A stretch of 60,409 bases of DNA, the filler included. It is 7 parts of 7 records of this genome, joined end to end, with 100 filler letters (N's around TTAATTAATTAA, not from the genome) between each part and the next. Parts side by side here need not be neighbours in the genome. Positions count along the whole stretch, not along the records: positions 1 to 8,520 come from SRR20825019_4; 6 more parts are not named here. One strand, given 5' to 3'. This document shows, one piece after another, positions 1 to 25,508 of the stretch. A program made the position numbers and the translations under genes. The notes under the pieces were generated by a model. That model had not been told where the DNA came from, did no database searches, and worked only from the letters and a program-made list of their open reading frames with translations. How positions within the stretch are numbered: the stretch's first letter is position 1; every line of letters begins with the position of its first letter.

Positions 1-28
1 TATATATATATATATATATATATATATA
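1..28. repeat. (TA)14 microsatellite at contig start
   Basis: Perfect TA dinucleotide run. Confidence 0.95.
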
Positions 29-100
29 GATTTGTATCCCCCCCCGTAAAATGTACATAACCACGTGTATACCACGCGTGCCTGTTGTTAGCCCGGTGAC

Positions 101-3100
101 ACACCTTTCCTTAAAACGGTATATCCACGTAATACTTAGAACAACAGCCCACGAAATTGTAAACAAACGTATCTGATGATAAAATGCACATATATCGTAC
201 GTGTATACTTATTTTTATTGTCTGTATGTTATATATCGATACAACTGTCTATGCATTACACGTGGTATTAAACTTGCCAGTATGTTATGTAATGTACAAT
301 TTGTGTAGTTATATACACCGGTATACTGGACAATGCCTGGAAAGGTGTATACACGTAGTCATATGAACAGATTAAACACTGCATACCAAATTACGTTTAG
401 TTGTTTTTTGTTTTTATATCCCCTATACTGTTATGTCTTTCTCGGAAAGGTGCGTATCACATTGAATAGTTGCGTACGGTATGTAATATACTGCGTGTAT
501 GCAGCATACACATGATACTACGGAAGTCGTGTATGTAACCGGACGGAGTACGCGTTTGTTCACGCCTATACAACCTTGTAGGCTATTACAATATACGTTT
601 TTAGGGCACGCTATCCCCCGGAGTATACCACGGTAAGTTTTGAATTAGTTACTCTATTTTTTTGTTTGTTGATATACTTAATTACTACATATATGTATGT
701 CTGGAAAGATATACCCGGTAGGAGTGATAACCTATAGCTTTATACTTTTTCAGGATTTGGTGTTTGTGTTTACGTAAACTGTATAACATATTATAGGAAA
801 GGTGTATTAACGACATGAACTACTTTCATAACTGCTGGAAACGACGCTCGCGTATGTACCATACAGGGTACACTCATCACCTACGTGGCATGTAACCCGC
901 ACGGTATTACGTACACCTTTCTTATGTATATAGTGTAATTATGGTAGTAATTAAACTATATCAACGAAAAAATATCTGGATATCGACATGTACCCCTTTC
1001 CGGGATAAGCGATGAATATTGTGAGGGTTAAACCAAAACAAAACAATAAAGTTTGCGTAATGGATAAGTTCTACCGAGTAGGAACAGGTATTAATTTTTA
1101 AAAACGCAAAATACCTGTATACAACAGTTTACACTACACTGTCGTGTAATATACCTTTCCGTGGTGTACTTGTACACAGTGGGAAGTTATTACAAAAACA
1201 CCAATATTATTCTGGGGAACATATAGGAACTTTTAGTACACCAAATACGACCTTTCTAAAAAGTATGCAACCAGTTTTAAAATGCACCTTTCCTGACCCG
1301 CGGTGTGAACATTGCCTTACACATGCCCCGTACAGTTTAAAAAAAAGAGTATGAAATTTACAAGTATTATACATATAAGTTCTGGGAGTACGTTACTATA
1401 TTTACCTCGTATTTCATAGACACATCTACACGTGTATAGTGTTTTATTGTGGTTTTGTATGCTTGACACTTCCTGGGTGCATAACATACTTTGGAAAGGT
1501 GTATTTATTCGTAAAGCCCTCAGTTACGTACGCCCTATGATCGTTTGATAGGATGCTTTAATATACACGTTGTATACATCGAACGGGTATACAACACCAC
1601 GTAGTGCATAATTAATTTCCAGGTGTACCTGTCCTAAAAAGGCACCACCCGGGTATGCAGGTAAGATATTACTTGTATGTAATCAAGTTTTATTTTTGTG
1701 CTTTTATTGATGCGGTGTACACGTAGTCACATAAATCATCATAGGAAAGGTGTATAGTGCATTGCTTGTAACTCCTATATGTAGTGACATATACCATCAA
1801 GTACACGGCTAGCACAGTTTATCATGTAGGTGCTAGAATCAACGTACTCGGCATCATGTGTAACACCTGTATTCCCAGCGTAGTTGGTTGATTTGTTTTT
1901 TACGAAACGCAGTGTAATATACGTACTCAGGAAAGGTGTTAAAAATTTCTATTGTTTTAATAATTAACTGTATATACGTGTTAACCAACCTACCCCGTAT
2001 ATTGACATAAAGGTGTAAGCCTTACATGTATACAAATAGTATATATGTGTAGTAAGTATCTCCCAGGGATGTTACACATAACCACAGCTACGACGTGCTT
2101 ATTTTTCTATCATTGTATGTTGTATGTTAGTACATGCATACCTATATTACGTTGGAAAGGTGTACACCTACGCTATGGTGTATGCATGTCATACACACCC
2201 GTACCCGATGATGTTTAGCACACAGTTAAACACCACGCAGGTGGGTATATATATATATATGCTTGTACACCTTTCCAACGAGAACACTAACTATTATACA
2301 CTTACAAAAACACTAAAAAAGTAGCAGTTTGTAATACCCGTACAGGATAACTTTCTACAGGTGTTATACGTACTACATGTGTTTGTTAACACCCCGATAT
2401 ATACATATACATATATGTCACGTAAAAAAATATATAGTATACCTCGGGTGTACGTGCATTGCATGTACGACTACAAAACATGTATTAATGTATACTGTAT
2501 TCCGGTAGGACCCATGTATGCGGGGATGTGTGTTTAACAGATACACCTTTCCCGATATGTAACGAGCAAGCATCCCAGATTAAAAAACATAAATAAGTAA
2601 CATATCTTACTTAGGGTATAACGTCCGGGATGTAGCGTGTAATAATACATATATAAACATAGACCCATGTATATGCATTGCATGTTGTACTTGTCAGCTC
2701 ACCTGGAGGGTGCACACCTTTCCGTAATATACATAGCACACGTATTATGTTCGTACCTCACAAAAAAATAAAAATGTTTAAGTAATGTGAATACGTTAAT
2801 GTCCTATACCGGTTTTATCATAGTGTATTACTTACCGGACGTTACATAAGTGTACGTAGTTAACTTTATCCCGGGGACTACGTTGCCAAAATTCCTACGA
2901 CGGTGATTCATCAACATACGATATGGATTGTATGTGGTACTACATATTTCACACGTGTTTGATCGATACATATGTGAACTTCTACAATTTTGTTTTTGTT
3001 TTTACACAAGTTGTATTATACCCCACTGGAAAGGTGTACTGTATTGTTATATTAATACGTTAATTACACGTACGGTATGCGCGTTACGAAACTACCTGCG

Positions 3101-6100
3101 TGTATTGTAAGTGTCGTACGTGTTCTGTTTATCATCTACATAATGTTGTTTTTGTTATTGTTTTATGAATAAGTTAACCCCACTTCAGGAAAGGTGTATG
3201 TCTACGTATACATATACAGGTTACAGTGTATACTATAACTTGTAACTACGTCTACAGTAGTATGTGTATTAAAAATGTATTACCGTTTACGCGCAATGTT
3301 AGCATTATACGTTCCCCATCGGATAGACACACCTTTCCTAGAAAACCTTACAATCCTGTACCGAGTATAAAAAATCAAAAAATGAAACCTATGTTACGGT
3401 AAGGCATTGTCCCTATACATAAAAACGTGTTATGTGTAAATTAACATGTAATACTTTTTTTATTACACGGGGGCAAGCTACATGCAATACTTTGTGCATA
3501 TAACTATACATATTTACATTTAGTTGGGGTTTGTTTTGTAATAACATACCACGTGCATTTAATTTGCTGGAAAGGTGTTACCGTGTTTCCCGGACTAAAC
3601 AGCTAACGTGTACGGCATCGTTAGAATGACCATGTAGTCTCCACAAGGTGAACACCGGGTTGTCTACCCGTTTGGTATAGTACGTTTCACACACTACTTG
3701 CACCCGGAAGGTTTACGTATTAATTTTTCCTAAAATTTTATGTAAGCCGTCCTGGAGGCTATGTGTAAAAACGTACGTGCTGACCCCTGTGTAAGACTGT
3801 GTGTTTACTATACATGTAATATACAATTTTTTCGCGATAGCGATGTACGGACTTGATAAATTAAATACGATGGAAAGGTGTACACGATGTAACGCATCTG
3901 GAGATTGCGTACGTGTCCCACCCAGAAGACATTGTACGGCTAGATACTTTCAGGCGGTATTATTTTATCCCCGGGGGTTACACGTAATCTATCTGGGATG
4001 TAAGGACACTACGAGCGTAGTTAACATGTTTCGTAAGTTAACACATAACAAACAAACACCGGTACATACAGTATTTCCCGAGGGTTATACTACCCGTATG
4101 AGTTCACATCTATTGGTCACACCTTTCCTTTATGTACAGTAGGGCATGATAATTACCCCACATAAATGAACTATGCAACACAATTACAAGGTGTACATGC
4201 CACCCCGGAGATATGCGTGGACTACGTGTGGGTGTATACTTACCTGCATGACTAGGGAGATTCCCCTTTCCGGTGTGGTAGTGCATACCGTAATTACAAA
4301 AAACACACCCCACGCAAACACGTAATCATCATACGTATAAAACATATACCGTAATATATGTGTACATACACGTGGTTGGCGTATACACTATGATGTACAC
4401 CTTTCCTCTAAAGTACGGGGGATGTAACATGCACCACTCCAAAAAACGTAACGAAACAGTTTTATGCATATAGTATGTTACGTGAGGTGTATGTGTTAAT
4501 CCTATGTACATTGTGTTAACGACCACGTACATGGTTAGTATTACACATCATTCATTACATTTTTTTTGTATAACAAATGCACTACGTACATTAAATAGTG
4601 CTAGGTATGTCTGTATATAGCTGGGTATTACACTTACTAATCATACTTAATGTCATACACCTTTCCGTTATTTAGCATGTTGTACATTACGGGGACAATC
4701 AATCCCAAAATAGTGACCCGTAGACGTACACGCCATACCACGTACTATTCAGGTAAGCACGGTTAAATTAGTAATATTAAGGTTATGTTGTAAGTATAAT
4801 ATCAGTAAGTGCTTACAGGTATCGTCGTAAAGCCTAGATGTACTGTTACGCGTTTTTGCGGAGCACAGCTTACACCCGTAAGTGGTGTACACCTTTCCGT
4901 TATATACTATGTACGCAATATTTACAACATACACAAAAACACGGAAACGCAAAAACGTATACCCGGTAAACAGCGTAGCATAATTTTACCATGTTTGTTG
5001 TATGATTACGTGCATGTGTTTAGACCTTACACACCTATCACCCTATGGGGCGTGGCATGTTGTACATGCATACTTAAATTACCTCGTGTAGGACTTATTA
5101 ACCACAGTATTTCACAGGGCAGTACTCGTAACATCCACTTATTACGTTTGACAAGGTACTCGTAACAGTTAATACACCGTGTAGCATTATTTCTATTTAC
5201 TTATTTTTTTGTTTGGTGTTGTCTGTTAAGCGCGTGTGTTACAATAAACCTAGGAAAGGTGTGTATACCTTTTTGTATAATTACGACACGTATACTGCGT
5301 AACAGAAATCACATCGCGTACACCATTACTATCCCCAGCATACATAGTATTACATTATTCCGCATTTATGTTTTTTGTATATTGCAAGTCTACGATGTAC
5401 TCGAGGAAAGGTGTACACACGAATACTACTGCAGGGGTTCTTATACATGTACGTACACGTGATGCTGTCTAATTTTAAATACAGCTAGTTAGTGTATGTG
5501 TGCTTAGCGTATGCGTTTAACAACCCCGAAACGGTAAGTGAAACACCTTGTAACACCTAAACGCGTACGATACAACGCATACCCCAGACAAGGCATGCTA
5601 CATATTATGTACGTTTACTGGGAACATACAGGACGTGTACACCTTTCCAATATTTGTTACTAGTATCCTGTACACAAAACAAACCTACCAAGCAACAAAT
5701 GGAAAATACTTCCCGTGTAATCCAGCATACACTGTAAGCCACATGTCGTGTACATTAATAAACCATAGTAATATACCTGTGTGTGTTTTTGTTTACGTGG
5801 GTGGTACTTCCTCCAGAAAATTACTTAAACCCATGTACACTACACAGATTAAATTATTAGCGTGTCATTACTAGTACAAATTCCCATATGGCTTACGCCC
5901 CACGTATGTATTTATGAGCTATGGTTTTGAAAAAATAGTATGCGTGTGTAATGTAACTGCATAACATAATATCCGCGTACACTAACCGGTGCGTAGCATA
6001 CCGTGTACATCTACTTTTATTTTTTTTAAAATATAGTTTGCTTATTAATATTTACTTGTTATAGGAAAGGTGTGTTGCAATGTACGTGATACACTTGTAT

Positions 6101-8445
6101 AACTAATACTGGTATCATACCATTCTACAGGTATGCATTACGGTTATTATATTCTCAGGAAATCTTACACGGCCGTAGTAGATCCCATCAGGTTTACACA
6201 CATCGTGATAGGGGCATGTGGCTAGGATTTACAGTTATATCTAACACCTTTCCGGGGATAGGTCTTGAATAACACACTGCATACACAACAACAAATACGA
6301 TAAGCACATTTATACCATAATGTCACTACACCCCTGGGCTATGTTATGTTGTTGATAATATTTTTCTTTTCGCGTAGCGATTACTATTATTACATACCAG
6401 GCATTCCTGGAAAGGTGTAACAGTATTCACCATAATGTGATACGTCGAAGCACACCGTTTACTACGGGCATGGTACACCTTTCCTACGCATTGTATCACG
6501 TAATACATATATATATCCTAACGGACAACATATTAAAGCAATATGTCTTAAGTGATTGTAATCCTGTGGGCGTGTCTGCTATACATATATACATGTATCA
6601 ACACGATATAGTTTTACAAGCTACACCTTTCCAAATATATGCGATATTGTGCGTGTAATAAATCTACACACAATAAAATAAAGCAACACAAAAACCTAGT
6701 AATGTAGTAATATAATATCCTTATGCAAGGTTATGATATCAGGTACACGTAATAATACCCTTGTTACGCGGGAAGCTCGTGAGTTAACCTGGTATGTAAT
6801 GTACACGATGAATGCTAAATTATGGCAAGCAAACCCCGTATACGTATTATGCAACATGTATTACAATCCGTGCATAGTTTACTGTGCGTTATCTTTTTGT
6901 TTGTGTTGTAGACGTAATACGTTATTATGTACACATTCACGGAAAGGTGTATGTTAACCTGTAGACGAGATCGTAACAGCAGTGAAACGTATACACCTTT
7001 CCTGTAACCTTAAATTTGCATAGTTAATACACACCACAAACCACTATAATAATATGTTAGTAACACGGCGCTTACCTAGGGTTTATTGGCATAATAAGTT
7101 TCACTAAAATACCTGCAACGTGTACATCACCTGGTAATGTTATACCACATTCCATATTATGTATGGTATAATACCGTGTGACACACCTTTCCAGAGTAGA
7201 ATGTAAACCGGGACTTTACTAGTACAAAAACAAAAAAAAAATAATTAATATTTTATTTCTGTTACGTTGTACGCTGTTACCTACATACAAGTGGTACACC
7301 TTTCCGGATCAGTTAATATCTAGCTGATATATGTACTAACGTACATCAATAGTAATAAAAATCATACGTGTGGGAGCAATGTATGTATACATTATGTACG
7401 TTACTGTTTAACTGATATATAAAATTCTTATGAGAACTCCATGGTTGTTTCTGTAACAGGGCTTGTCACTAATAATTATAAAAAAAGTCATACGGTGATA
7501 TGTTCCCAATTTTTTCCGGAAATGTACTGCTACAAATTTTGGATGTGTACAAGGGAGGTACACCTCCCGGGGTGTAAACGACGTTGTCCTGGAAAGGTGT
7601 CGCTACCGGGGGCAGTGTACTGAACATGGATTTATCCTAACCCACGTGTGTGCCCTTCCCGTAAAAAGGTTTCGTGTAAGTCGTATATCATACAAACAGC
7701 AAACGGCATTAACAATTACCTGTGCAATATAATGTAGTATGATCTGCTAGATTTGGAACAACAACATCAAGTTACTTGTATGTAACGGAGACACCTTTCC
7801 TATGTATATATGTAATACTGTATACGTATGCTACCGCATAATAAAAAAATAGAACAGTACAAGTTAGGGTATATATTATATTACGGCAGTATTGTGCAAT
7901 AATATGTTTTAAATTTCTGCGGAGCAGTTACATACCCGGGGTACGTTAACGATGGAAAGGTGTACGTATAAAGTAAGTTACTGTTACAGAATATATACAG
8001 TCATATGTACGCGTAACATTTGTTGTACATGTACAGTGTAACTCTTCATGAAGGCGTTAACCGGATACAAGCTTACATGTGTAAGAACTCATGCAACACA
8101 TATATAAATGTGTATAACATAATTCTATTTTTTTTTTGAATGTACATGTAATGTGCATACGTGAACCTACCCGTAACATAGGAAAGGTGTACGACATTTG
8201 TGTATACAACTAACATGATTTTTTGCGTTAACAGATATACACCTTTCCCGGAATAAATGCAGAACGTTACTTATTTCCAAAACAAAACAATGAAAAAAAA
8301 ATTAAAGTAAGTTACTACTATCACACAGGGTATGTTGTATACACTATATGTCACGTATGCGTTAGGTCGTGTACAGTATATAAATTTTACGAAGTATAAA
8401 TGTTTTGTTATGTTATGTATTATAGTATTCCCATAGGAAAGGTGT
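101..8445. repeat. Dispersed array of the decamer ACACCTTTCC/GGAAAGGTGT (candidate kinetoplast gRNA-cassette motif)
   Basis: By-eye count: 18 exact ACACCTTTCC (101, 2267, 2543, 2714, 3329, 4119, 4397, 4657, 4889, 5639, 6244, 6475, 6623, 6993, 7183, 7296, 7791, 8239) and 19 exact GGAAAGGTGT (339, 796, 1493, 1744, 1930, 2154, 3028, 3188, 3569, 3872, 5253, 5405, 6064, 6409, 6941, 7591, 7954, 8181, 8436). One-mismatch copies at 444, 913, 992, 1151, 1284. Intervening sequence appears unique and has no credible ORFs. Confidence refers to the repeat, not the function. Confidence 0.95.
1192..1232 (+). ncRNA. Example putative guide RNA (one of ~40 cassettes)
   Basis: Starts 31 nt after the motif at 1151-1160. 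ACAAAAACACCAATATTATTCT (G-free, anchor-like) is followed by GGGGAACATATAGGAAC (G-containing, guide-like). Boundaries approximate; function inferred. Confidence 0.45.
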
Positions 8446-8520
8446 GATGTTTATGTTATGTGTTATCATGACGAAACGTTCGTATTAAATTAATTTCGGG
8501 AAATACGGGAAACTTCCCGA

Positions 8521-8620
8521 NNNNNNNNNNNNNNNNNNNNNNNNNNNNNNNNNNNNNNNNNNNNTTAATTAATTAANNNNNNNNNNNNNNNNNNNNNNNN
8601 NNNNNNNNNNNNNNNNNNNN
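8521..8620. other. Artificial contig linker
   Basis: N44-TTAATTAATTAA-N44, stops in all six frames. Confidence 0.99.
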
Positions 8621-8648
8621 GGGGGGGGGGGGGGGGGGGGGGGGTTAC

Positions 8649-16227: not shown

Positions 16228-16327
16228 NNNNNNNNNNNNNNNNNNNNNNNNNNNNNNNNNNNNNNNNNNNNTTAATTAATTAANNNNNNNNNNNNNNNNN
16301 NNNNNNNNNNNNNNNNNNNNNNNNNNN
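16228..16327. other. Artificial contig linker
   Basis: N-TTAATTAATTAA-N. Confidence 0.99.
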
Positions 16328-16433: not shown

Positions 16434-19400
16434 ATGAGCGAGACCGGATCTATGGCCGGCAGCATGGTAGGAGGCAGTACCCTAAACGGTGGCGATACCG
16501 ACTCAACACACGCCTCCGCATCGGCCCCATCCTCCCTGTTTCCCGGAAGTCGCATCTATAAATTTGTCACCGAGGACTTCCCAATATTCCCAGCTTTAGA
16601 GACATTAGTTGGAATTGCCGAATGGAGGTGGGCATCGTCACTAGGAGTACTGGTGCAGGCAATCCAAAGGCTCGCATTCGTCGTGAACCCCCATTTTAAC
16701 GCAATTTGGGGTGAGGCGGTTGGAACGAGTGGAATTAGTCGAGTATTCTACTTCTCCCACTTTCCCATTTATGACCCTCTTGAGTTCCCGTACACCGACA
16801 TCACCGCCACCATCCAGTTCGGTATTTGGTTCAGTGCCGTCGTAGCGATTGCATTGTTCGTATCAGTGGGTTTAGCATCTGCAACATTATCTCGCACAAA
16901 TAAACAAGATTCCCTCAATATGGTGTCTGTACGACTGATTGGGAGGACGTACTCGACATGGGTGTGGATCCCGCTTCTACAAATGATTGCGGCATCTATG
17001 GTGTGCGATTTGGCTTACACTGCCAAGTCGTTTGTACAGGGAGGTAACTCGGCCCCGACTGAAACAACACAGGCCTTCTTAGCTACCCTATACGCAGATG
17101 CAGGCTCCACTGCTGCAGCTGGACTAAATGTAGGGACCACCTCTACGTCCGCATCCCTCCTCGTACAATCGTCCATCTACTCGTCAGATACCAACCTTCC
17201 TGTCGTCAACTCCTATGCACCCCTCCGCAGTGAAATTAACGACTATGACTTCGCATCATTTAGCTGGTACTATCGATACGTACCCGCGACGTTTGTTAAA
17301 CTGAGTAATGCTGAGTGCTTCGGTCCGTCCCACACTGCCACCTTCATTGGCGGCGTAATCACCATCCTAGCACTGATCCCCCTACTCGTCTTTATTCGTC
17401 TATGCGACTACAGCACCACAACCAAGACTACCACCGGTGAGAGGAGGCTACTTGGGCGTCGTCACTCCACTTGCGATCTGTTTGATCTGGCATACACCGG
17501 CCTTCTTGCATTGCTGTATAACCTGATGCTCGCTACCGGTCACCACGCTGCCTTCTCACTAATTTATTGTGGATTGTCAGCGGGGATGGTAGTGGTGCAT
17601 GCCTATCACCTCCCATACCACAACCGCTTCATGAACCGTCTCATGGTTGCCTCCTACTCATTGTGTGCCTATACTGGTGCGTTAGTAGCTGCTGCAATGT
17701 ACAATACTACATTCGGCCAAGTCGAGGGGGCGCCTGTGATGTTCTTAGGTCTCACGCCCATCGTAATATTGGTTGGATACGTGATGGCTGAGTATCGAGT
17801 ACACACCCCCTTCGTACATGCAGTAGAGCGCTGCACTCTTGATGGTAACATGCACGATAACACTATCGTATGTACCACCGCCTCTGCTGCTAGCCACGCA
17901 TTTACCCCCTTCAGGCACAAGGCGCACACCCAGACCAACGGCCCTACTACTCTCGCAGAAGCCGCCTCCTGCATCTGGAGGGTCGATGCGTCCGGCCAGA
18001 CCCTCCGCTGTGACGATCCCCACACGATGGGGGGTTTTGGGGGTTCCACCAACCGCTTCGCCACTAGCTCACATTTCGACCACAACATGACAAATGCAGC
18101 TACTACCAATTATGATGCGTTCAGGGAGGGGGTTGCGGTGGATGTAGGACTACCCGAATCTATGGGCCATAGTATTCACTACCACCCCCTTATGGAGTTA
18201 CCTATGGATCTGGTCAGCACACACAGGGAGGCCCTACTAAGGGAGCAGGGCCGTATCATCTCTGAGAGAAGGAAGGGGTCGTCTCATCAACACGCTACCC
18301 TCGCCGAGGACCTCGCCGATCCTGAATACCACTTCAGGCGCCCCCAATGCGTCGAGGCGGAGACGCAACTCCGGGCCGCACAGGGGTTTGCAGCCAACAC
18401 CATCCCCTTCTCTACCCTCGAGCACCGCCAGCGGTTCCCAGCGGGCCTGGAGGATGATACCCTGGTACTCTTCTCTCCCTTCCCAGACTTTGACAGTCGT
18501 GTCCGAGATGCCCTAGCAAAGCAAATCGCATCTCACAAACACACCGTCTCCTCCACCACCATGGCCAACAACCACAACCATAACAACCGTGCCAATGATC
18601 CTTCGGCTGGTATGGTGTATGGCCGACGGAACAGTACCGGGGATCTCAATGGTGGTGAGGACGTGATGCTGACCAGTCTACGGCCTGGCTCTGATCAGCA
18701 ATACAATGCCCGTGGCGGTGGTGGCGCGTGGTCCAATCCCTTCTCCTCCATGTTCAGAGCTGCGTCGGTATTTACTGATTTATTTGGTAATTTTGGAGCT
18801 TCTTCGAATTATGCTGCCAGTAACAATCCCACAGACAGTTCCCTTAACACGGGCTCCTTTAACCCAATGGACTCCTCTAGAGGGGATAACCCCTTCGGAA
18901 ATAGTAAGTCACAATACCCCTCATCTACTGCTGGTGGTGGTGGTGCATTCCATCGAAACCCTGCCGCCATAATCCCCGAGCCTGGACTCAAGCAGCGAGT
19001 CAGTCGTCTATTGCATCCCTTCATAAGTAATGTGTATTCTGGCCGCGATGTGAGTTTAGCAACCAGTTTTGTGTACCAAGGTACATGGCCCCTACATCGA
19101 ACCCCCTCCGCCGAGATGCTACTACTAGCCTCGCATATGTATGCCCGCGGTCTCGTCCGCTTCCGCTCCTCCCCCATCGTCCTCCTAGACTTCGGAACCT
19201 TCATCACCGACTATATCCCCAGCCTTGCTGCATTCGGTACACAGCTACTTGAGCAACTCCAGCAGTGCAATCACCTATCCCTCGTGATACAGTTCCGTAC
19301 CACGCTCTTTGCTAGTAATCTCAGACAAGCTTTGGGTATTCGCAACCACAGTCATCTGCTCCACAGCGAGGCCGCCCGTACACTCCACCGGTCCGTCCTG

Positions 19401-22400
19401 TCACACATGACAACCTTCTGGAACACGCTCGCGGAGCCCAGCGTTAACATCGGCCAAGTTGCGGCAATCGCCGACGACATCACGTTGGACCGACGAAAGG
19501 CTATTGGGCAGTTCCAGCTCGCGATTCAGCGACAGACAGCATCCGACCCTAAACTTATTACCAGACTGGGTGAGTTTTTACAAGACGTCATGCTCGATAC
19601 CGAGGGCGCTACTGAGTGCTTCAACGAGGCAAGGGAAATAAGGGATGCGCGAAATGCTCGTACAATGCGTGGAACTCGACAAGTTACCCTCGTCGAGCTC
19701 GATTTACAAACTCTCAGCAATCGATTGTTGGGATTGCTATCCTCCCGGCAAGACACTGCTGTAGTTGCATCAAAGGGGATGGTACAATTCCTTCTTTTCA
19801 AGGTAACAATCATCATCTTATTTTTGGCGGCGGTCGCGGCATTGATGGTGTACGGGACGCTCTGGCAGGGCGATCAGGAGCGGGGGGTACTGAGGCGTGT
19901 GCAGGCTGGTTCGGAGGTATCCTCCTCCCTTGCTATGTTTACAGCGGTGCTTTACGCACAAGACCAGACGCTATCCGCCTCGTCATCGTCGTCGTCTGTA
20001 CAGTCAAATGTAACTGCTATCCTTTCATCGTTAGCAGAGACGTTTGGTAATGCCCTTCGAGACGTTACCGTCGGCAGTGCGGCCTCCAGTTACAAGCCCC
20101 ACCTCGACATCCTACATTCCGCTTCTATTCCCTTTTCAACCGACACGGACGTTTTAACAGGTGCCTCTGGTGTCGCTGTTGGTGCCTTCGACACTAGTAG
20201 CTATGTGGGAGGTGTAGCTGCCTCCCCCTATGCGTACAAAGAGGGACGTCAGACAATCGACTTTGATAGTATATCGCTACCTGAGGGGACCTCGCTGTGG
20301 GAGCTGGGACAGATTCTGAGTGCGAGCATGCAGGCCATTGTCCAAAGCGGGTTGGATCCTGCCGTCTCCTTCTTCCACTCCCTTACGCTGCGGGATAATG
20401 TTCACAAGGCTGAGTCAGTTTTCCAGTTCGATGTTCGTATGTTCCTTGAGGAGCAGCACGCCAACATGAGCAAGATGCGAATCTACTTTGTGATTGTCTT
20501 TTTGATTGGACTCGGGGTGTTGTTGGTGTTGTATTTAACCTTCTATCTCAGTCTACAGAGGACAGCATCAGAGAGGATGTTTACCTTCCAGCTAACCACC
20601 CTAATCCCCTTCGAATCACTGGAATTCCTCGCCTCCGAAGCCCGACGAAAGGTCAATGTGATCCTAGCAGAGCAGCAACAAGGTGGGAAGCGTGGTGGTG
20701 GGGGTAGCACTGGCATGAAGTTCAATACTGAGTTCCAGCTTGGATTCAGTGGTCTTTCTAACTCCACAAATGGTGCTTCCGGTTGGTTGGGAGTTTCAAC
20801 CGAAGACCAGTCTGAGAATAGTCAGCGATCGAGCAGAGCACCAACCCCACTGTCAGCAGCAGTTGGTGTCAGCAAGGGTACTGCTGCGGCTACTACTGTA
20901 AAATCCTCGTTATTTCCATCGACGTCATTAACACATCCCCATCACGGTAGACGCAGCCCCCCACCCCCTCCACCCGCACCTGATGCAGCAGCTTTACTTT
21001 CAGGCAGCGATGATAATGGTGAAGATGGTACCGGTGTAGTTACATCCCCCCCTACCGCTGCCCGGCCATTGATCGATATCTTTGAGGATCAAGGAGTGCC
21101 TGTGAAAACCCTATCCCGCCGTGCCCAACGGGGTGGTGGTAAGGTCGTCATCATTGGCACTAGTGACGATGAAATTGCCAATAGTGACTCAGACGGCGCC
21201 CCGAAGAAGCGTAACAGCGGTGGAGCTAAGCGTCGAGGAAAACAGCAGTTTAACCTTAATGATGACAATGAAGATGCACAACCACCTGTTCGTGGAGGAC
21301 GGAGGGGTGGTGGAGCTGGTGGTCCTGTTCTGACCGAGGAGGAGTACCAAGCAAAGAAGAAGAAGCACCAAGAGTATCTTCGCATGTTCAAACCTCCAAA
21401 GGAGCTACGATCCTGCCTTAAACGCGGGACGAAACAAGGTGGGGATCGGAGTGGAGGTCACAACACGCTTACATCCTCCGCAGCTGCCCTCACTAGTGCC
21501 CTTGAACCCCGCCTGATGCATCAACCCGAGAAGAAGGTAAGCGGTGGTGGTGCCCCTGTCAACACTAACAATATCCTCTCAAAGCAAGAACGCCAACGCC
21601 AACTTAGATCTAACAACGCCACGAGGGCAAAGAAGGTTCGCTGGGGTGGAGTAACTATCGTAGGGGCTGACAACAGTGTTCAGCGACAGCTTCAGAGCGC
21701 GGTGGCAGATGAGAAGACCGTCTCACGAGCTATTGATGAGGAGTCGAATGACAGCTGGGATGAGGACGAGACGAGCATGGAAATCCAAAGAGGCGCTGAA
21801 CAAAGTAAACGTGATCGTCAACGGCAAGCTGAAACCAAAGCCAAGCTCCGCCGAGCCTACTACCGCTACTTTGCCGTCACAATCGCCGCACTTGTGCTGA
21901 TTTTCACAATTGTTGTTACAACGTTGTTGGTGGTAGTTGTGGGGGAAATTGACGCGGGTCCGACGGAGTATGGAGATGTACTTGCCGACATTATCAACAT
22001 CGGCTCCCTTCGAGACAGTATCGTCTCACTCAGCGACCGCGGCCTCCAATTCACCATCTCCGGAAATGAAGATCTTGGTACTACTTACTTCGCACATCGT
22101 CGTCGGGTGTACGCAGAGCTGGACAGGCTGGTGTTGTTAGGTATTACCGAGGAGGAGGTCAGCCGACTTTTAGCCTTCGAAGCTGAGTTCAAGGATCAGC
22201 AATATGTCATCGACGATCTACTCGCCCTCTCCACCTTCTCCCACTCTATTCCGATTGTCGTGGATGTCATACCGACATTACATCCACTAGTGAAGAATGC
22301 AACGGAGCTGTATGAGAGAGTAAAAGAGAGACACCCCCTTAAGTATGCATCGTCATGGAAATTATACAATGCTATGTATAACGCTTCCGTCCCTATTCTA

Positions 22401-25400
22401 CTCACCAAATTCGCATCAAATCCCAACTACATCGATGACTTCCCATTTAACATTTCGGACCCTGTATACCGCACCCCCTCGGTGCACAATCGTCTATTCC
22501 TCGCGACGTTGTGCCCCCAGATTTATGTCGATATTCTTACAACAGCAGCCACCACCATGACTCGCCTTAATAGTATTTACGACACATTTGTGGAACGATC
22601 TATCAGAAAACTCGACGACATTACCCCCATAAAGAAGCTCACGGCGGCCCTTGCCTGCTCCATCTGCGCTGTTATATTGGTGCTGTTGTTGGCGGCTTTG
22701 GATGTAAATACTCTAACGTTTGGATACCTCGGCCGGGCTCATATGCTCATGTTGGTGGTTGTGTGGATACCGTGTGTAGCACTCTGCTGGGTTGCACTTG
22801 ACAATGCGAAGAACATGGACTCTCGTGTCGTCGAAAGCCGCCAAAATATCTTTACCGCTCTTGATGCCTACTCCAACATCACCACCAGTGTCCTTGCAGG
22901 CCATGAGGTGGCGGCAGCAGGTATGTTCTATTCCTTCCAGCGGAGCCAAGCTATCTCCTACGACCAGATAGTTCGTAGCCTTGTGGCAGTAGTTCGGACG
23001 ACTCAAGAGGAGGCGGAGGAAAACGCCCAGAAGGTCTCCATATTCTCAACCGCCCCTAACTTTGAAACAGCTCTTCCAAGTGATACTATAGTCGGGGGGA
23101 AGTTCTTAACTTCTGCGAATCTCTTGACGAACATGCAAACGGCTGCTACTGGGATGAAAACATCGTCCCTTATGGCAATCGATTATTTTGTAGCACAACC
23201 GATGGTGGATGCACTAGACCACTCATATTGGAACTTCTATGAAGAAGCGGATGTGCAAATCGACATGGCGCTATTTCGAAGGCCGCTACATCTCGATCAG
23301 GACATACCTCTCACCTACACCAACAAGACGTACGACCTAACTACGCGCTCCCCCCTCGAGCTCACCATCGCTGCCGTCTACACAGCCTTCGGACCCCGCT
23401 ACATTGCTCACTCACGTGTCGTCGCAAACACGGCCACTAAGGTGCGCGATAGTGGTATTGTCACAAGTATGGACTCGGTCAGGAGGAGTGGAGAGAATCT
23501 AAAGGCGCTTGTCGTTTCTGCCCTCATCACGGCCGTCATAGTCGTCATAACTATGGCTGGATTATCCTACCTGTTTTTACAAGTGCTCTACTTACTGCTG
23601 GGACTGAAGGCGGATGGTAGCAAAGTGTTCGAGGGGTCCATCTACGAGCGCATGATGGTCAGGGCGCGTGTGGCCGTACTCGCCCTCGCATTCCTCCTCG
23701 TGGCCGCCTTTGGGGTATGTATGTTTGCAACTGGTGTCAATGAATCTTACGCAAACCAACTGTATTTAGCCCAGCTAACAAAAATCCATATTGCGGATAG
23801 TTTGTTAATGTTCCATGAGGCGCTTGCAAACCTTACAATTAGTGGAGTATCTCGACACGCTGATTTCAGTACTATGGGCGATTCAGTCAACGATCTCATC
23901 TCAACAAAACGTCAATTATTGTTCGGATCGAGCCCCCTAGATGGTCGGATGGTGGCTTTGGGTAGCACCCCTGGCTTCGACGTACCTCTCTTTGGAGCGG
24001 GTGATATCGATGCTGCCAACGCGCTCCTATCAACCCTGTATCGTGATGGTTGTGGTGGGTTGTTGAATGCTGACACCCAATCACGGATGTCCGCATTCCT
24101 GAGCTCCACCGCAGCAGCCGTCCAAGACAGTGCAGTGACGTTATCCCAAGGCTCCAGTGGTATTGGGTCCTTCACCGCCTACAACACAGATACCACCGCC
24201 ACCTCTCCCACTGGCAGTGGACAACTACAGTTACACATGCTGAATACAGCCCTTGTACGCTGGTCCGAGCTACTCACCGTCATCAGCGGAAGCGCTTCTC
24301 GATTTGAAACGTATGCAGAACAACGTGCCTTTTTCGAAACCATTCTCAATGAAATGACAGCTGCAGCCCCCGATATTATAACAGGTGTGGCCGAGGTAAC
24401 CTCCAACCTCAGCGCACACCTTAATGGGGAGCTGGATACCATCACTACCGTGTCACTCATCGTTGCCTCGCTATTCGCCGCCGCCGTCGCGATCGTCTAC
24501 TTCTTTGTATTTATTCCTATTGTGCGACTATTAGTGGAAGAGGCTGAGAACGCTAAGCTACTCCTCCGAATGATTCCAGCCTCCGCACGGGAGCAGGTCC
24601 CCGCCATCGCCGAGTTTGTCGAAACTGGACGCATTGACAATGCCGCAGAGCTCCAGAAGAAATTCGAGGCCAGTGAGAAGCTTTTGCAGAATATACTTCC
24701 CACAAAGATTGCCAAGAGGCTTAAGGCGGGGGAGCAGCCGATTGCAGACATGCACGAGAGCATATCGATCCTCTTTACTGACCTAGTAGGGTTCACGAAG
24801 CGCAGTAGTAGCATGGCTGCTTTCGAGATCGTGGATTTCCTTAACGAAATATTCCTCGAATTTGATACAATTGCGGAGCTGCTTGAATTGGAAAAGATCA
24901 AGACGATTGGGGATGCGTACTTCTTGGCAGGGGGTCTAGATCCCACTATCAAGGACCATGCCATGCGTGTAATCGAAGCCTCCCTACTCTTCTTCACGAG
25001 TCTCCATGAGCACAACGAGCGACACCCCGGCCGAGACCCCCTTCGTATGCGACTAGGCGTCCATACCGGCCCCGCAGTAGCTGGCGTTATTGGAAAATCC
25101 AAGGTCGCATATGACTTATGGGGGGAGAGTGTTGAGATTGCGAATGCTATGGAGACAACAGGAGTGCCCGGCCTCGTGCACATCTCAGAAACCACCGCCC
25201 ATGACGTCCAGGGATACTACCGCCTAGAGGACAGGGGGGAGTTGCCACGTGAGAAGGAGTCGATCCCCGATAACATGCCTGCCACATTCCTCGTCACCGG
25301 TAGACTACTACCCACCCCCTATATGCACCTAGTTCGGCCCAAGCTACACTCCAAAACCGCACATGGATCCCTGGGAGGCAGTGGTGGTGGTGGGGTAGGA

Positions 25401-25508
25401 AGTAGTAGTGCTGCCAACAGTATGAGCGGCACTCAGAAAGATACTACCCCGAGAAAGAAGCTACTACCCAAGGATGCACCCCCAAGCTCCTCGCTGAACT
25501 CTTTATAA
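16434..25508 (+). CDS. Giant multi-pass membrane class III nucleotidyl (adenylate-type) cyclase with TmcB-like helical region
   Basis: 3024-aa intronless ORF with many TM segments. C-terminal S-helix (SEKLLQNILP) and cyclase motifs ILFTDLVGFT, EKIKTIGDAY, MRLGVHTGP, YDLWG. Confidence 0.92.
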   Translation: MSETGSMAGSMVGGSTLNGGDTDSTHASASAPSSLFPGSRIYKFVTEDFPIFPALETLVGIAEWRWASSLGVLVQAIQRLAFVVNPHFNAIWGEAVGTSGISRVFYFSHFPIYDPLEFPYTDITATIQFGIWFSAVVAIALFVSVGLASATLSRTNKQDSLNMVSVRLIGRTYSTWVWIPLLQMIAASMVCDLAYTAKSFVQGGNSAPTETTQAFLATLYADAGSTAAAGLNVGTTSTSASLLVQSSIYSSDTNLPVVNSYAPLRSEINDYDFASFSWYYRYVPATFVKLSNAECFGPSHTATFIGGVITILALIPLLVFIRLCDYSTTTKTTTGERRLLGRRHSTCDLFDLAYTGLLALLYNLMLATGHHAAFSLIYCGLSAGMVVVHAYHLPYHNRFMNRLMVASYSLCAYTGALVAAAMYNTTFGQVEGAPVMFLGLTPIVILVGYVMAEYRVHTPFVHAVERCTLDGNMHDNTIVCTTASAASHAFTPFRHKAHTQTNGPTTLAEAASCIWRVDASGQTLRCDDPHTMGGFGGSTNRFATSSHFDHNMTNAATTNYDAFREGVAVDVGLPESMGHSIHYHPLMELPMDLVSTHREALLREQGRIISERRKGSSHQHATLAEDLADPEYHFRRPQCVEAETQLRAAQGFAANTIPFSTLEHRQRFPAGLEDDTLVLFSPFPDFDSRVRDALAKQIASHKHTVSSTTMANNHNHNNRANDPSAGMVYGRRNSTGDLNGGEDVMLTSLRPGSDQQYNARGGGGAWSNPFSSMFRAASVFTDLFGNFGASSNYAASNNPTDSSLNTGSFNPMDSSRGDNPFGNSKSQYPSSTAGGGGAFHRNPAAIIPEPGLKQRVSRLLHPFISNVYSGRDVSLATSFVYQGTWPLHRTPSAEMLLLASHMYARGLVRFRSSPIVLLDFGTFITDYIPSLAAFGTQLLEQLQQCNHLSLVIQFRTTLFASNLRQALGIRNHSHLLHSEAARTLHRSVLSHMTTFWNTLAEPSVNIGQVAAIADDITLDRRKAIGQFQLAIQRQTASDPKLITRLGEFLQDVMLDTEGATECFNEAREIRDARNARTMRGTRQVTLVELDLQTLSNRLLGLLSSRQDTAVVASKGMVQFLLFKVTIIILFLAAVAALMVYGTLWQGDQERGVLRRVQAGSEVSSSLAMFTAVLYAQDQTLSASSSSSSVQSNVTAILSSLAETFGNALRDVTVGSAASSYKPHLDILHSASIPFSTDTDVLTGASGVAVGAFDTSSYVGGVAASPYAYKEGRQTIDFDSISLPEGTSLWELGQILSASMQAIVQSGLDPAVSFFHSLTLRDNVHKAESVFQFDVRMFLEEQHANMSKMRIYFVIVFLIGLGVLLVLYLTFYLSLQRTASERMFTFQLTTLIPFESLEFLASEARRKVNVILAEQQQGGKRGGGGSTGMKFNTEFQLGFSGLSNSTNGASGWLGVSTEDQSENSQRSSRAPTPLSAAVGVSKGTAAATTVKSSLFPSTSLTHPHHGRRSPPPPPPAPDAAALLSGSDDNGEDGTGVVTSPPTAARPLIDIFEDQGVPVKTLSRRAQRGGGKVVIIGTSDDEIANSDSDGAPKKRNSGGAKRRGKQQFNLNDDNEDAQPPVRGGRRGGGAGGPVLTEEEYQAKKKKHQEYLRMFKPPKELRSCLKRGTKQGGDRSGGHNTLTSSAAALTSALEPRLMHQPEKKVSGGGAPVNTNNILSKQERQRQLRSNNATRAKKVRWGGVTIVGADNSVQRQLQSAVADEKTVSRAIDEESNDSWDEDETSMEIQRGAEQSKRDRQRQAETKAKLRRAYYRYFAVTIAALVLIFTIVVTTLLVVVVGEIDAGPTEYGDVLADIINIGSLRDSIVSLSDRGLQFTISGNEDLGTTYFAHRRRVYAELDRLVLLGITEEEVSRLLAFEAEFKDQQYVIDDLLALSTFSHSIPIVVDVIPTLHPLVKNATELYERVKERHPLKYASSWKLYNAMYNASVPILLTKFASNPNYIDDFPFNISDPVYRTPSVHNRLFLATLCPQIYVDILTTAATTMTRLNSIYDTFVERSIRKLDDITPIKKLTAALACSICAVILVLLLAALDVNTLTFGYLGRAHMLMLVVVWIPCVALCWVALDNAKNMDSRVVESRQNIFTALDAYSNITTSVLAGHEVAAAGMFYSFQRSQAISYDQIVRSLVAVVRTTQEEAEENAQKVSIFSTAPNFETALPSDTIVGGKFLTSANLLTNMQTAATGMKTSSLMAIDYFVAQPMVDALDHSYWNFYEEADVQIDMALFRRPLHLDQDIPLTYTNKTYDLTTRSPLELTIAAVYTAFGPRYIAHSRVVANTATKVRDSGIVTSMDSVRRSGENLKALVVSALITAVIVVITMAGLSYLFLQVLYLLLGLKADGSKVFEGSIYERMMVRARVAVLALAFLLVAAFGVCMFATGVNESYANQLYLAQLTKIHIADSLLMFHEALANLTISGVSRHADFSTMGDSVNDLISTKRQLLFGSSPLDGRMVALGSTPGFDVPLFGAGDIDAANALLSTLYRDGCGGLLNADTQSRMSAFLSSTAAAVQDSAVTLSQGSSGIGSFTAYNTDTTATSPTGSGQLQLHMLNTALVRWSELLTVISGSASRFETYAEQRAFFETILNEMTAAAPDIITGVAEVTSNLSAHLNGELDTITTVSLIVASLFAAAVAIVYFFVFIPIVRLLVEEAENAKLLLRMIPASAREQVPAIAEFVETGRIDNAAELQKKFEASEKLLQNILPTKIAKRLKAGEQPIADMHESISILFTDLVGFTKRSSSMAAFEIVDFLNEIFLEFDTIAELLELEKIKTIGDAYFLAGGLDPTIKDHAMRVIEASLLFFTSLHEHNERHPGRDPLRMRLGVHTGPAVAGVIGKSKVAYDLWGESVEIANAMETTGVPGLVHISETTAHDVQGYYRLEDRGELPREKESIPDNMPATFLVTGRLLPTPYMHLVRPKLHSKTAHGSLGGSGGGGVGSSSAANSMSGTQKDTTPRKKLLPKDAPPSSSLNSL

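What the first reader, a model, noticed from the sequence alone, without database searches (positions are those of the whole stretch)
992..8310. Near-fixed offset to an A/C-rich, G-poor tract followed by G-containing sequence (anchor-then-guide polarity)
Seen, forward copies: 992 -> AAACCAAAACAAAACAATAAA at 1030; 1151 -> ACAAAAACACCAA at 1192; 2267 -> ACAAAAACACTAAAAAA at 2304; 7183 -> ACAAAAACAAAAAAAAA at 7224; 8239 -> AAAACAAAACAA at 8279. Reverse copies mirror this, with T/G tracts ending ~25-40 nt before GGAAAGGTGT (444, 1930, 3028, 3188, 5405, 6941). Known: gRNA anchors pair Watson-Crick with U/G-rich edited mRNA and so are A/C-rich, while guide regions use G:U pairs. Inference: the motif sets a start or processing point ~30 nt away. 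Read in mRNA sense, some tracts resemble pan-edited ORFs (3121-3165 gives VLFIIYIMLFLLLF), but U-rich DNA does this easily.
Basis: partly seen in the sequence, partly recalled or inferred. Interest (0 to 1): 0.75.

Follow-up and report, generated by a model that had tools for sequence, protein, structure and literature searches.

The report
Guide-RNA gene array of a kinetoplastid
The first 8.5 kb of the window look like mitochondrial (kinetoplast) DNA packed with about 42 tiny guide-RNA genes, each lying a fixed ~28 bases downstream of the same 10-base signal, which is a new variant of a layout already known from trypanosomes.

Summary
Contig 1 (1-8520) holds 42 copies of the core CCTTTCC, consensus (T)ACACCTTTCC, on both strands. 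The 10-mer with up to 1 mismatch matches 44 times in the window, against 4.2 expected by chance. In 29 of 42 copies an A/C-rich, G-poor tract begins at +25..+50, typically +35. The same profile appears in 708 independent cassettes from 29 metagenome contigs.

Blocks at about +33..+62 recur between otherwise unrelated cassettes and differ only by transitions: 28 pairs, against 5.9 in recombination nulls. The transitions are rare in the A/C part and common in the 3' part. Purine excess runs through the whole block, but G and T are suppressed only in its first ~15 nt. A nuclear contig of the same window encodes an NSA1 protein whose named relatives are nearly all trypanosomatids.

My best reading (0.7) is a set of guide-RNA genes with the anchor first and the guide second, positioned by an upstream element as in T. 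brucei (30-32 nt) and T. borreli (20-40 bp). No target mRNA, small RNA or 5' end could be examined. No CSB3 was found.

The motif, the density of about 5 genes per kb and the absence of inverted-repeat pairs make it a new variant of a known kind.

The parts
101..169 (+). cassette: motif 101-110; A/C tract 140-156 (starts +36)
280..348 (-). cassette: motif 339-348; no clear A/C tract at +25..+50
385..453 (-). cassette: motif 444-453; A/C tract 395-415 (starts +35); 84% similar over 51 nt to a cassette in L062
737..805 (-). cassette: motif 796-805; A/C tract 756-771 (starts +31)
992..1060 (+). cassette: motif 992-1001; A/C tract 1030-1050 (starts +35)
1151..1219 (+). cassette: motif 1151-1160; A/C tract 1192-1204 (starts +38)
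1284..1352 (+). cassette: motif 1284-1293; no clear A/C tract at +25..+50
1434..1502 (-). cassette: motif 1493-1502; A/C tract 1439-1458 (starts +41)
1685..1753 (-). cassette: motif 1744-1753; A/C tract 1687-1718 (starts +32); 31-nt transition-only match to a cassette in L015
1871..1939 (-). cassette: motif 1930-1939; A/C tract 1883-1901 (starts +35)
2095..2163 (-). cassette: motif 2154-2163; A/C tract 2113-2128 (starts +32)
2267..2335 (+). cassette: motif 2267-2276; A/C tract 2304-2320 (starts +34)
2543..2611 (+). cassette: motif 2543-2552; no clear A/C tract at +25..+50
2714..2782 (+). cassette: motif 2714-2723; A/C tract 2755-2774 (starts +38)
2969..3037 (-). cassette: motif 3028-3037; A/C tract 2988-3003 (starts +31)
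3129..3197 (-). cassette: motif 3188-3197; A/C tract 3144-3164 (starts +30)
3329..3397 (+). cassette: motif 3329-3338; A/C tract 3369-3382 (starts +37)
3510..3578 (-). cassette: motif 3569-3578; A/C tract 3519-3539 (starts +36)
3813..3881 (-). cassette: motif 3872-3881; no A/C tract, but its block at +31..+66 matches a cassette in L017 over 36 nt with 8 transitions and 0 transversions, and all but one of the transitions lie in the 3' half
4119..4187 (+). cassette: motif 4119-4128; no clear A/C tract; 27-nt transition-only match to a cassette in L017
4262..4330 (+). cassette: motif 4262-4271; A/C tract 4296-4321 (starts +31)
4397..4465 (+). cassette: motif 4397-4406; A/C tract 4432-4458 (starts +32)
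4657..4725 (+). cassette: motif 4657-4666; A/C tract 4695-4710 (starts +35)
4889..4957 (+). cassette: motif 4889-4898; A/C tract 4924-4956 (starts +32)
5194..5262 (-). cassette: motif 5253-5262; A/C tract 5204-5227 (starts +32)
5346..5414 (-). cassette: motif 5405-5414; A/C tract 5365-5378 (starts +33)
5639..5707 (+). cassette: motif 5639-5648; A/C tract 5672-5699 (starts +30)
6005..6073 (-). cassette: motif 6064-6073; A/C tract 6015-6027 (starts +43)
6244..6312 (+). cassette: motif 6244-6253; A/C-rich stretch starts early (+24), outside the +25..+50 criterion
6350..6418 (-). cassette: motif 6409-6418; no clear A/C tract at +25..+50
6475..6543 (+). cassette: motif 6475-6484; no clear A/C tract at +25..+50
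6623..6691 (+). cassette: motif 6623-6632; A/C tract 6666-6696 (starts +40)
6882..6950 (-). cassette: motif 6941-6950; A/C tract 6883-6909 (starts +38)
6993..7061 (+). cassette: motif 6993-7002; A/C tract 7029-7044 (starts +33)
7183..7251 (+). cassette: motif 7183-7192; A/C tract 7224-7241 (starts +38)
7296..7364 (+). cassette: motif 7296-7305; no clear A/C tract at +25..+50
7532..7600 (-). cassette: motif 7591-7600; no clear A/C tract at +25..+50
7791..7859 (+). cassette: motif 7791-7800; no clear A/C tract at +25..+50
7895..7963 (-). cassette: motif 7954-7963; no clear A/C tract at +25..+50
8122..8190 (-). cassette: motif 8181-8190; A/C tract 8128-8138 (starts +49)
8239..8307 (+). cassette: motif 8239-8248; A/C tract 8277-8301 (starts +35)
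8377..8445 (-). cassette: motif 8436-8445; A/C-rich stretch starts early (+24), outside the +25..+50 criterion
8494..8520 (.). start of the repeat region shared by the related molecules (TTTCGGGAAA / CGGGAAACTTCCCG-type units); the contig breaks here

Best explanation
Contig 1 is kinetoplast DNA of a non-trypanosomatid kinetoplastid. It is a dense array of guide-RNA (gRNA) gene cassettes on both strands, about one per 200 bp.

Each cassette has three parts:
(i) the 10-nt element (T)ACACCTTTCC;
(ii) a variable spacer of about 28 nt whose length is kept;
(iii) an information block of about 28-33 nt.

The first ~15 nt of the block are almost only A and C. I read this as the anchor, which pairs by Watson-Crick pairs with U/G-rich edited mRNA. 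The 3' half admits G and T. I read this as the guide, where G:U pairs are tolerated.

I infer that the element positions transcription initiation about 28 nt downstream. The likely start is the first A of the tract, which follows a T in 81% of cases. This would be analogous to the forward 18-bp repeat of T. brucei cassettes and the RYAGGCTTT element of T. borreli.

Shown here: the anatomy, its replication in independent DNA, the transition-only recurrence of blocks, slower evolution of the block, and the kinetoplastid context.

Inferred: transcription, the start site, pairing with mRNA, and function in U-insertion/deletion editing.
For: 1. Motif enrichment and a strand-coupled profile. These are reproduced in 708 independent cassettes from 29 metagenome loci.

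2. Offset. The tract starts at a median of +35 from the first C of the core, which is 28 nt after the motif's last base (IQR +32..+40). In 18 orthologous cassette pairs at about 88% identity there is 1 gap over +7..+62, against 41 over +66..+159.

3. Information content. Transversion-free runs of at least 26 nt between unrelated cassettes within +28..+72 number 28. The null, which recombines the halves at +50, gives a mean of 5.9 and a maximum of 9 in 12 runs. For runs of at least 28 nt the figures are 14 against 1.75. The flanks of these pairs are unrelated. Runs span a median of +32.5 to +60.

4. Polarity. In those 28 pairs there are 18 transitions at +40..+49 and 90 at +50..+59. Over all cassettes the purine fraction is 0.60-0.67 across +35..+59. 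G/(A+G) is 0.08-0.12 at +35..+49, rises to 0.20-0.29 at +50..+64, and is about 0.39 in the background.

5. Selection. The substitution rate in the block is 5.6% (29 of 522), against 12.1% downstream (202 of 1671); Fisher p = 9e-6.

6. Context. Contig 1 has no ORF longer than 178 codons, no Rfam match reaching its gathering score and no tRNA. An NSA1-like protein on contig 3 has 22 rows that carry an organism name. 21 are trypanosomatids (E 1e-137 to 1e-106) and the weakest is Diplonema (E 6e-18).

7. Established knowledge. T. brucei gRNA genes start 30-32 nt from the forward repeat and have AC-rich, GT-poor anchors (PMC9202587, passages). T. borreli gRNA loci lie 20-40 bp from RYAGGCTTT on long molecules carrying many gRNAs on both strands (PMC9679448, passages). 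Perkinsela candidates have an A- or A/C-rich tract upstream (PMC4669381, passage).
Against: - No target could be examined. There is no maxicircle, cryptogene or edited mRNA in the window or the loci, so complementarity, the defining property, is untested.
- There are no small-RNA data or 5' ends.
- 13 of 42 cassettes in the window lack a clear tract, as do 28% overall.
- A/C tracts share 11-mers very often: 2163 diagonals, against 113 in a control stretch. Much of the tract similarity is therefore low complexity, and only some 20-odd pairs are truly redundant.
- No excess of staggered anchor-to-guide overlaps was seen, although an editing cascade predicts them. The test had little power.
- The block-versus-spacer substitution difference is not significant (p = 0.10), and the block carries 10 transversions among 29 substitutions in orthologous pairs.
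- CSB3, universal in known minicircles, was not found in about 175 kb.
- In run X6, whose RNA nature is a guess, a 399-nt and a 529-nt contig cross motifs. Their adaptor-like loose ends lie 20 nt from a motif, not at a tract. This is weak, may be an artefact or DNA, and rests on two cases.
- That contig 1 and the kinetoplastid nuclear contig come from one organism is assumed from their being in one window.
Confidence: 0.7

Rival explanations
1. These are gRNA genes, but the A/C tract is not the anchor. It is a generic initiation region or non-pairing 5' leader, and the mRNA-complementary part begins only after it, as was suggested for Perkinsela candidates.
For: - Tracts are low in complexity and share 11-mers about 19 times more often than a control stretch (2163 against 113 diagonals).
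- A T precedes the tract in 81% of cases, and the first base is A in 78%, which looks like an initiator context.
Against: In redundant pairs the specific tract sequence recurs together with the 3' part, while the flanks are unrelated. Linkage of the two halves exceeds the recombination null, 28 against 5.9. The purine fraction is continuous from the tract into the 3' part, as expected if both face the same kind of mRNA.
Confidence: 0.15
2. These are gRNA genes, but the 10-mer is not a promoter-positioning element. It is a processing or protein-binding signal inside long precursor transcripts that run through many cassettes, and gRNA ends are made by trimming.
For: Two long contigs (399 and 529 nt; 0 and 4 differences) in run X6 span several cassettes and motifs on either strand. 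From recall, not checked here: long minicircle precursors trimmed 3'-5' are known in T. brucei.
Against: The RNA nature of X6 is a guess and DNA can be in it. Kinetoplastid gRNAs are primary transcripts starting at a fixed distance from the upstream repeat in T. brucei (PMC9202587, passages). The spacer length is kept free of indels, which fits a distance rule for initiation.
Confidence: 0.1
3. These are not gRNA genes. They are another family of short repeats or small-RNA genes, for example a dispersed promoter-like repeat of an organelle, a virus or another eukaryote in the mixed sample, and the A/C tract is a compositional by-product.
For: No target, transcript or editing machinery was examined. 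No CSB3 was found. The window mixes eukaryotic and bacterial contigs, so the origin of contig 1 is inferred.
Against: The strand-coupled anchor-then-guide composition matches that described for T. brucei gRNA genes. Transition-only recurrence of ~30-nt blocks is what G:U-tolerant pairing predicts and has no obvious other cause. A kinetoplastid nuclear contig lies in the same window. There are no ORFs and no known RNA families.
Confidence: 0.05

Closest known systems
Trypanosoma brucei minicircle gRNA cassettes (Cooper et al. 2022, PMC9202587; passages read)
   Same: A conserved upstream element lies at a near-fixed distance from the gene start: 30-32 nt in T. brucei, about 28 nt here. The 5' anchor is AC-rich and GT-poor and is followed by a G-containing guide. 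The gene begins with A. Cassettes without a recognisable gene also exist.
   Different: The T. brucei element is an 18-bp repeat that frames each cassette as an inverted pair on ~1-kb minicircles. Here a single 10-mer goes with each gene, orientations are mixed without pairing, there are about 5 genes per kb on molecules of at least 12 kb, and no ATATA-type initiation sequence is seen. The blocks here are about 30 nt, against 42 nt of complementarity there. No CSB3 was found.
Trypanoplasma borreli gRNA-bearing contigs (Gerasimov et al. 2022, PMC9679448; passages read)
   Same: Many putative gRNA loci lie on both strands of long molecules that end in repeats. A short conserved motif lies 20-40 bp upstream. 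The gRNAs are short (median 28 bp). Coverage is redundant. The motifs also resemble each other loosely (RYA..CTTT), which is my own comparison and was not tested.
   Different: The motif RYAGGCTTT is essentially absent here: 3 occurrences in 174,587 bp on both strands, against 683 of ACACCTTTCC. Density differs: on average 23 high-confidence loci per ~70-kb contig there, about 5 per kb here. T. borreli repeats carry a CSB3-like sequence and none was found here. T. borreli anchors often hold G:U pairs, whereas here G and T are depleted in the 5' part.
Perkinsela putative gRNA genes (David et al. 2015, PMC4669381; passage read)
   Same: An A- or A/C-rich tract lies at the 5' side of the candidate gRNA.
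   Different: No common flanking motif was reported there, and the tract was placed upstream of the complementary region. Here a strict 10-mer is present and the tract behaves as part of the information block. File S3 of that paper could not be seen because supplements are closed.
gRNA contigs of free-living Prokinetoplastina (Tikhonenkov et al. 2021, PMC7859406; passages read)
   Same: These are free-living kinetoplastids with separate gRNA-bearing molecules that share a conserved region.
   Different: Those molecules are ~600 bp with one gRNA region, or 1.3-2.2 kb with 2-3 gRNAs. Here the arrays hold dozens.

Membership tests
Kinetoplastid guide-RNA gene | Complementarity, with G:U allowed, to a mature edited mitochondrial mRNA | not testable with these tools
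   No maxicircle, cryptogene or edited mRNA is in the window or in the 29 related loci.
Kinetoplastid guide-RNA gene | Expressed as a small primary transcript (5' triphosphate, 3' oligo-U tail) | not testable with these tools
   Only Logan contigs were available, and these cannot show starts, ends or small RNAs.
Kinetoplastid guide-RNA gene | AC-rich, GT-poor 5' anchor followed by a guide that admits G and U | tested here: met
   G/(A+G) is 0.08-0.12 at +35..+49, 0.20-0.29 at +50..+64 and about 0.39 in the background. Compare PMC9202587.
Kinetoplastid guide-RNA gene | Redundant genes for one site that differ by transitions (A/G, C/U) only | tested here: met
   28 pairs with transversion-free runs of at least 26 nt, against 5.9 in the nulls. 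Flanks are unrelated. Transitions: 90 A/G and 86 C/T.
Kinetoplastid guide-RNA gene | Overlapping cascade: the anchor of one gRNA matches the guide end of another | tested here: inconclusive
   No excess at staggered offsets. Background matches (about 1100 for 14-mers) swamp the few tens expected.
Kinetoplastid guide-RNA gene | The host is a kinetoplastid | tested here: met
   NSA1-like ORF 26889-28268: 21 of 22 organism-named hits are trypanosomatids, and Diplonema is the weakest hit. Linkage of contig 1 to that nucleus is assumed, not shown.
Kinetoplast minicircle | Conserved region with CSB3 (universal minicircle sequence; the 12-mer was typed from recall) | tested here: not met
   No exact match, and 2 non-recurrent matches with up to 1 mismatch, in 174,587 bp. 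The shared repeat regions are only partly assembled.
T. brucei-type cassette | Gene framed by an inverted pair of 18-bp repeats | tested here: not met
   One 10-mer per gene. The strand order along the contig is irregular, for example + - - - + + + - - - -. The profile is one-sided.
T. borreli-type gRNA molecule | RYAGGCTTT 20-40 bp upstream of the gRNA locus | tested here: not met
   3 occurrences in 174,587 bp on both strands. A different motif sits at a similar distance.
T. borreli-type gRNA molecule | Long molecule with many gRNA loci on both strands and repeats at its ends | tested here: met
   Loci of up to 12 kb hold up to 58 motifs. The ends of most loci fall in a shared repeat region.

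The most novel reading that the evidence does not exclude
This is a class of kinetoplast DNA not yet described: molecules of at least 12 kb that are almost wall-to-wall gRNA genes. There are about 5 genes per kb on both strands, each with its own ACACCTTTCC element 28 nt upstream, blocks of about 30 nt, no inverted-repeat framing and no CSB3. The molecules belong to a free-living kinetoplastid lineage that also turns up in several metagenomes.

The ~30-nt distance between the upstream element and the gRNA start, shared with T. brucei although the elements themselves are unrelated, would then be an ancestral geometry of the gRNA transcription machinery.
Probability: 0.4. Interest if true: 0.65.

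Novelty: new variant of a known kind. Interest (0 to 1): 0.5.

Why it matters
gRNA gene organisation is known in detail for only a few parasites. For free-living kinetoplastids, which make up most of the group's diversity, almost nothing is known; a 2026 preprint counts only two public genomes (10.64898/2026.09.29.755400, passage).

If the reading holds, this array supplies hundreds of gRNA genes with a sharply defined upstream element. It shows that the anchor-then-guide composition and a spacing of about 30 nt are shared between distant kinetoplastids that use unrelated motifs.

That makes the unknown gRNA promoter or positioning factor a comparative question. It also gives a simple sequence signature for finding kinetoplast DNA in metagenomes.

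Tried and rejected
- The whole genome of the window is not held.
- No RNA holder is listed for contig 1. Only contigs could be laid.
- Literature search for the 10-mer. 398 papers hold one of the two strings. The 20 listed, seen as titles and abstract starts, are unrelated primer uses. Combined with 'kinetoplast', 2 papers and 1 paper remain, both unrelated by title.
- The Wideman 2019 single-cell paper has no gRNA analysis (one passage seen).
- A search for Bodo caudatus kDNA found nothing useful. From recall only: 10-12 kb minicircle-like circles were reported for that species in 1986. I saw no text on this.
- A global all-offset search for transversion-free matches showed no excess over reversed controls below about 34 nt. 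It was dominated by self-overlaps and by one pair of orthologous contigs.
- A fixed-window core/tail test gave 4 against 0.57 expected, which is too rigid to be useful.
- Exact 11-mer seeds mostly reflect low complexity.
- The staggered-overlap (cascade) tests found no signal and had low power.
- Coding test of the mRNA-sense blocks: 2.42 open frames on average, against 2.25 ± 0.03 in mononucleotide shuffles. At least one frame is open in 99.6% against 99.3%, so the test is uninformative.
- The Atlas searches showed only that two ORFs are eukaryotic.
- CSB3 and CSB1-like searches were negative.
- Rfam, tRNA and ORF scans of contig 1 found nothing of note.
- Positions of the ~490 differences to the ~94% relative in run X4 could not be used, because only 40 rows were shown.
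- Supplements are closed. Table S1 of the T. borreli paper and File S3 of the Perkinsela paper could bear on the comparison.

Full report
WHAT THE WINDOW IS

The 60,409 bases are seven contigs joined by N-TTAATTAATTAA-N spacers. The finding lies wholly in contig 1 (1-8520; GC about 0.36). The other contigs are of two kinds:
- Three are GC-rich, with long same-strand ORFs of eukaryotic type: alpha-kinase, WD40/NSA1, a 3024-aa cyclase, a longin SNARE and a RING protein.
- Three are bacterial: Kdo transferase, DegT, Mfd and a CBASS-like operon.

The NSA1-like ORF (26889-28268) has 64 relatives. 22 rows carry an organism name. 21 are trypanosomatids (E 1e-137 to 1e-106, 44-69% identity) and the last and weakest is Diplonema papillatum (E 6e-18, 26%). 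The eukaryote is therefore a kinetoplastid outside the sequenced trypanosomatids. That contig 1 comes from the same cell is assumed.

THE OBSERVATION

The core CCTTTCC occurs 22 times forward and 20 times reverse in contig 1, and 6 times in the remaining ~52 kb. The 10-mer ACACCTTTCC with up to 1 mismatch matches 44 times, 42 of them in contig 1. The chance expectation is 4.16 ± 2.10, and 0 of 100 shuffles reached 44.

Aligned on the motif, the downstream side shows A+C of 0.77-0.83 and G of 0.05-0.07 at +35..+49, counted from the first C of the core. The background is 0.50 and 0.18. The upstream side is flat, and the downstream side is back at background by about +65. 29 of 42 cassettes have a clear tract starting at +25..+50; 13 do not. 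Spacing between motifs is 55-422 bp, and the strand order is irregular.

RELATED DNA

One scan of metagenome contigs for a head-to-head motif pair returned 76 loci. 29 of them have the same character, with GC 0.34-0.40 and 2-6 motifs per kb, and total about 166 kb. The other 47 are chance hits with at most a few motifs.

The loci are mostly unique in sequence. The exceptions are one orthologous set (L040/L057 against L062, about 88% identity) and a repeat region at the ends of most contigs. That region is built of units such as those at L019 11570-12073, and in L057 it extends for at least 2.7 kb. Contig 1 ends (8494-8520) in the same unit.

In 708 cassettes from these loci the profile repeats, with A+C 0.76-0.82 and G 0.05-0.07 at +35..+49. 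Over all 747 cassettes:
- The tract starts at a median of +35 (IQR 32-40; 10th-90th percentile 26-47), which is 28 nt after the last base of the 10-mer.
- Its median length is 17.
- 72% of cassettes have a tract, against 17% in a control stretch.
- The base before the tract is T in 81%, and the first base is A in 78%.

IS THE BLOCK INFORMATION-BEARING?

Redundant guide RNAs for one mRNA site may differ only by transitions, because A or G pairs with U and C or U pairs with G. I therefore looked for transversion-free matches between cassettes from unrelated contexts.

Within +28..+72, at offsets up to 6, there are 28 pairs with runs of at least 26 nt and 14 with at least 28 nt. The controls are as follows:
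- Reversed sequences give 5 and 0 in this window.
- Two control windows give 9 against 12, and 15 against 28 (forward against reversed).
- A stricter null keeps each half of the block but recombines the halves at +50. It gives means of 5.9 and 1.75, with maxima of 9 and 4 in 12 runs.

The alignments show identical or transition-only blocks embedded in unrelated spacers and downstream sequence. The runs span a median of +32.5 to +60.

The clearest case in the window is cassette 3872-3881(-). Its block at +31..+66 matches a cassette of L017 over 36 nt with 8 transitions and no transversion. The 5' half of the match holds one transition and the 3' half holds seven.

In 18 orthologous cassette pairs the block evolves at 5.6%, against 12.1% downstream (p = 9e-6). 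The spacer evolves at 8.2%, which does not differ significantly from the block (p = 0.10). There is 1 gap over +7..+62, against 41 over +66..+159. Motif invariance in these pairs follows from how they were chosen.

POLARITY

In the 28 pairs, transitions are rare at +40..+49 (18) and frequent at +50..+59 (90). A/G and C/T changes are about equal, 90 and 86. The outermost deciles of the runs are inflated by chance extension.

Over all cassettes the purine fraction is 0.60-0.67 from +35 to +59. G/(A+G) is 0.08-0.12 and T/(C+T) is 0.32-0.42 only at +35..+49. T/(C+T) is back near background (0.58-0.66) from +50, while G/(A+G) rises to 0.20-0.29 at +50..+64 and reaches background (about 0.39) from +65. 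This is what a single U/G-rich partner strand predicts if wobble pairs are excluded from the first ~15 nt and allowed afterwards.

WHAT IS NOT SHOWN, AND WHAT SPEAKS AGAINST

No mRNA target, small RNA or 5' end could be examined. No excess of staggered anchor-to-guide overlaps was found, but the expected few tens would be lost in about 1100 background matches.

Many tracts share 11-mers simply because they are low in complexity. A rival reading, that the tract is a generic initiation or leader region as was suggested for Perkinsela (PMC4669381), therefore keeps some weight.

No CSB3 was found.

Public runs:
- Three runs of one study hold contig 1 (X1-X3).
- Two estuary metagenomes (X4, X5) hold a small share of its sampled words.
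- Laid on the contig, X4 holds a relative covering nearly the whole contig, at about 94% identity by my estimate from the listed pieces, with 338 transitions and 150 transversions.

Run X6, whose RNA nature is only guessed, holds a 399-nt contig (5270-5668, 0 differences) and a 529-nt contig (7771-8299, 4 differences). Both cross several cassettes. Their loose ends, which I recognise from memory as a cDNA template-switch adaptor, abut 5668 on the minus strand and 7771 on the plus strand. Each of these points is 20 nt from a motif, not at a tract. One junction resembles the adaptor's own end, so an artefact is possible. With two cases and an uncertain library I treat this as an open point. It fits long precursor transcripts better than it fits any particular start site.

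COMPARISON WITH KNOWN SYSTEMS AND NOVELTY

The kind is known: gRNA genes at a fixed distance from a conserved element.
- T. brucei has 18-bp inverted repeats on 1-kb minicircles.
- T. borreli has RYAGGCTTT 20-40 bp upstream, on ~70-kb contigs with on average 23 high-confidence loci on both strands, and short gRNAs with a median of 28 bp (PMC9679448).

What differs here:
- The element itself. RYAGGCTTT occurs 3 times and ACACCTTTCC 683 times in 174,587 bp.
- One element per gene, without inverted pairing.
- The density, about 5 genes per kb.
- No CSB3 found.

Papers on free-living prokinetoplastids describe far smaller gRNA molecules (PMC7859406). Searches of the held library did not find the motif in a kinetoplast context. 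Supplements and subscription journals were not searched, so prior description cannot be excluded.

VERDICT

The gRNA-gene reading, with anchor-then-guide polarity, is the best explanation at a confidence of about 0.7. The role of the motif as a start-setting element is inferred by analogy. It is a new variant of a known kind and of moderate interest.

Noticed in passing
window 8521-8620, 16228-16327, 29184-29283, 37520-37619, 44892-44991, 53183-53282: The window is seven separate contigs joined by N44-TTAATTAATTAA-N44 spacers. Neighbouring contigs need not be linked or come from one organism.
   Followed up: yes
window 8494-8520; L019 11570-12073; L057 1556-4281; ends of most related loci: The gRNA-array molecules share a repeat region of at least 2.7 kb built of G/C-clustered, A/T-phased units, with tandem periods of about 49 and 337 bp. 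The assemblies break there. No CSB3 was seen in it.
   Followed up: partly
window 5270-5668 and 7771-8299: Run X6 (RNA only as a guess) holds two near-identical contigs crossing several cassettes. Adaptor-like loose ends abut 5668 (minus strand) and 7771 (plus strand), each 20 nt from a motif. Short contigs of 31-52 nt at high depth, with 3-5 mismatches, lie on three A/C tracts: 6657-6697, 7224-7258 and 8274-8306.
   Followed up: partly
window 1-8520 against run X4: An estuary metagenome holds a relative of nearly the whole contig, at about 94% identity by my estimate, with 338 transitions, 150 transversions and many small indels. The molecule as a whole, not only the motif, is therefore conserved between samples.
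   Followed up: partly
window 55489-60326 (contig 7, minus strand): A bacterial defence cluster: a CBASS-type oligonucleotide cyclase (57847-59283) and a phospholipase effector (59280-60326), next to a protein matching the PADLOC model STK_OB (55489-57243).
   Followed up: partly
window 16434-25508 (contig 3, plus strand): A 3024-aa intron-free ORF with a C-terminal adenylate/guanylate cyclase domain lies in a same-strand gene row with the NSA1-like gene. This is typical of kinetoplastid polycistronic units.
   Followed up: no
window 1-28 and 8621-8644: Contig 1 begins with a (TA)n run, and contig 2 begins with a run of 24 G. These are probably assembly-end artefacts.
   Followed up: no
window 6409-6484, 6941-7002, 8181-8248: Three head-to-head motif pairs lie only 55-69 bp apart, so two diverging cassettes share a very short upstream region.
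   Followed up: no
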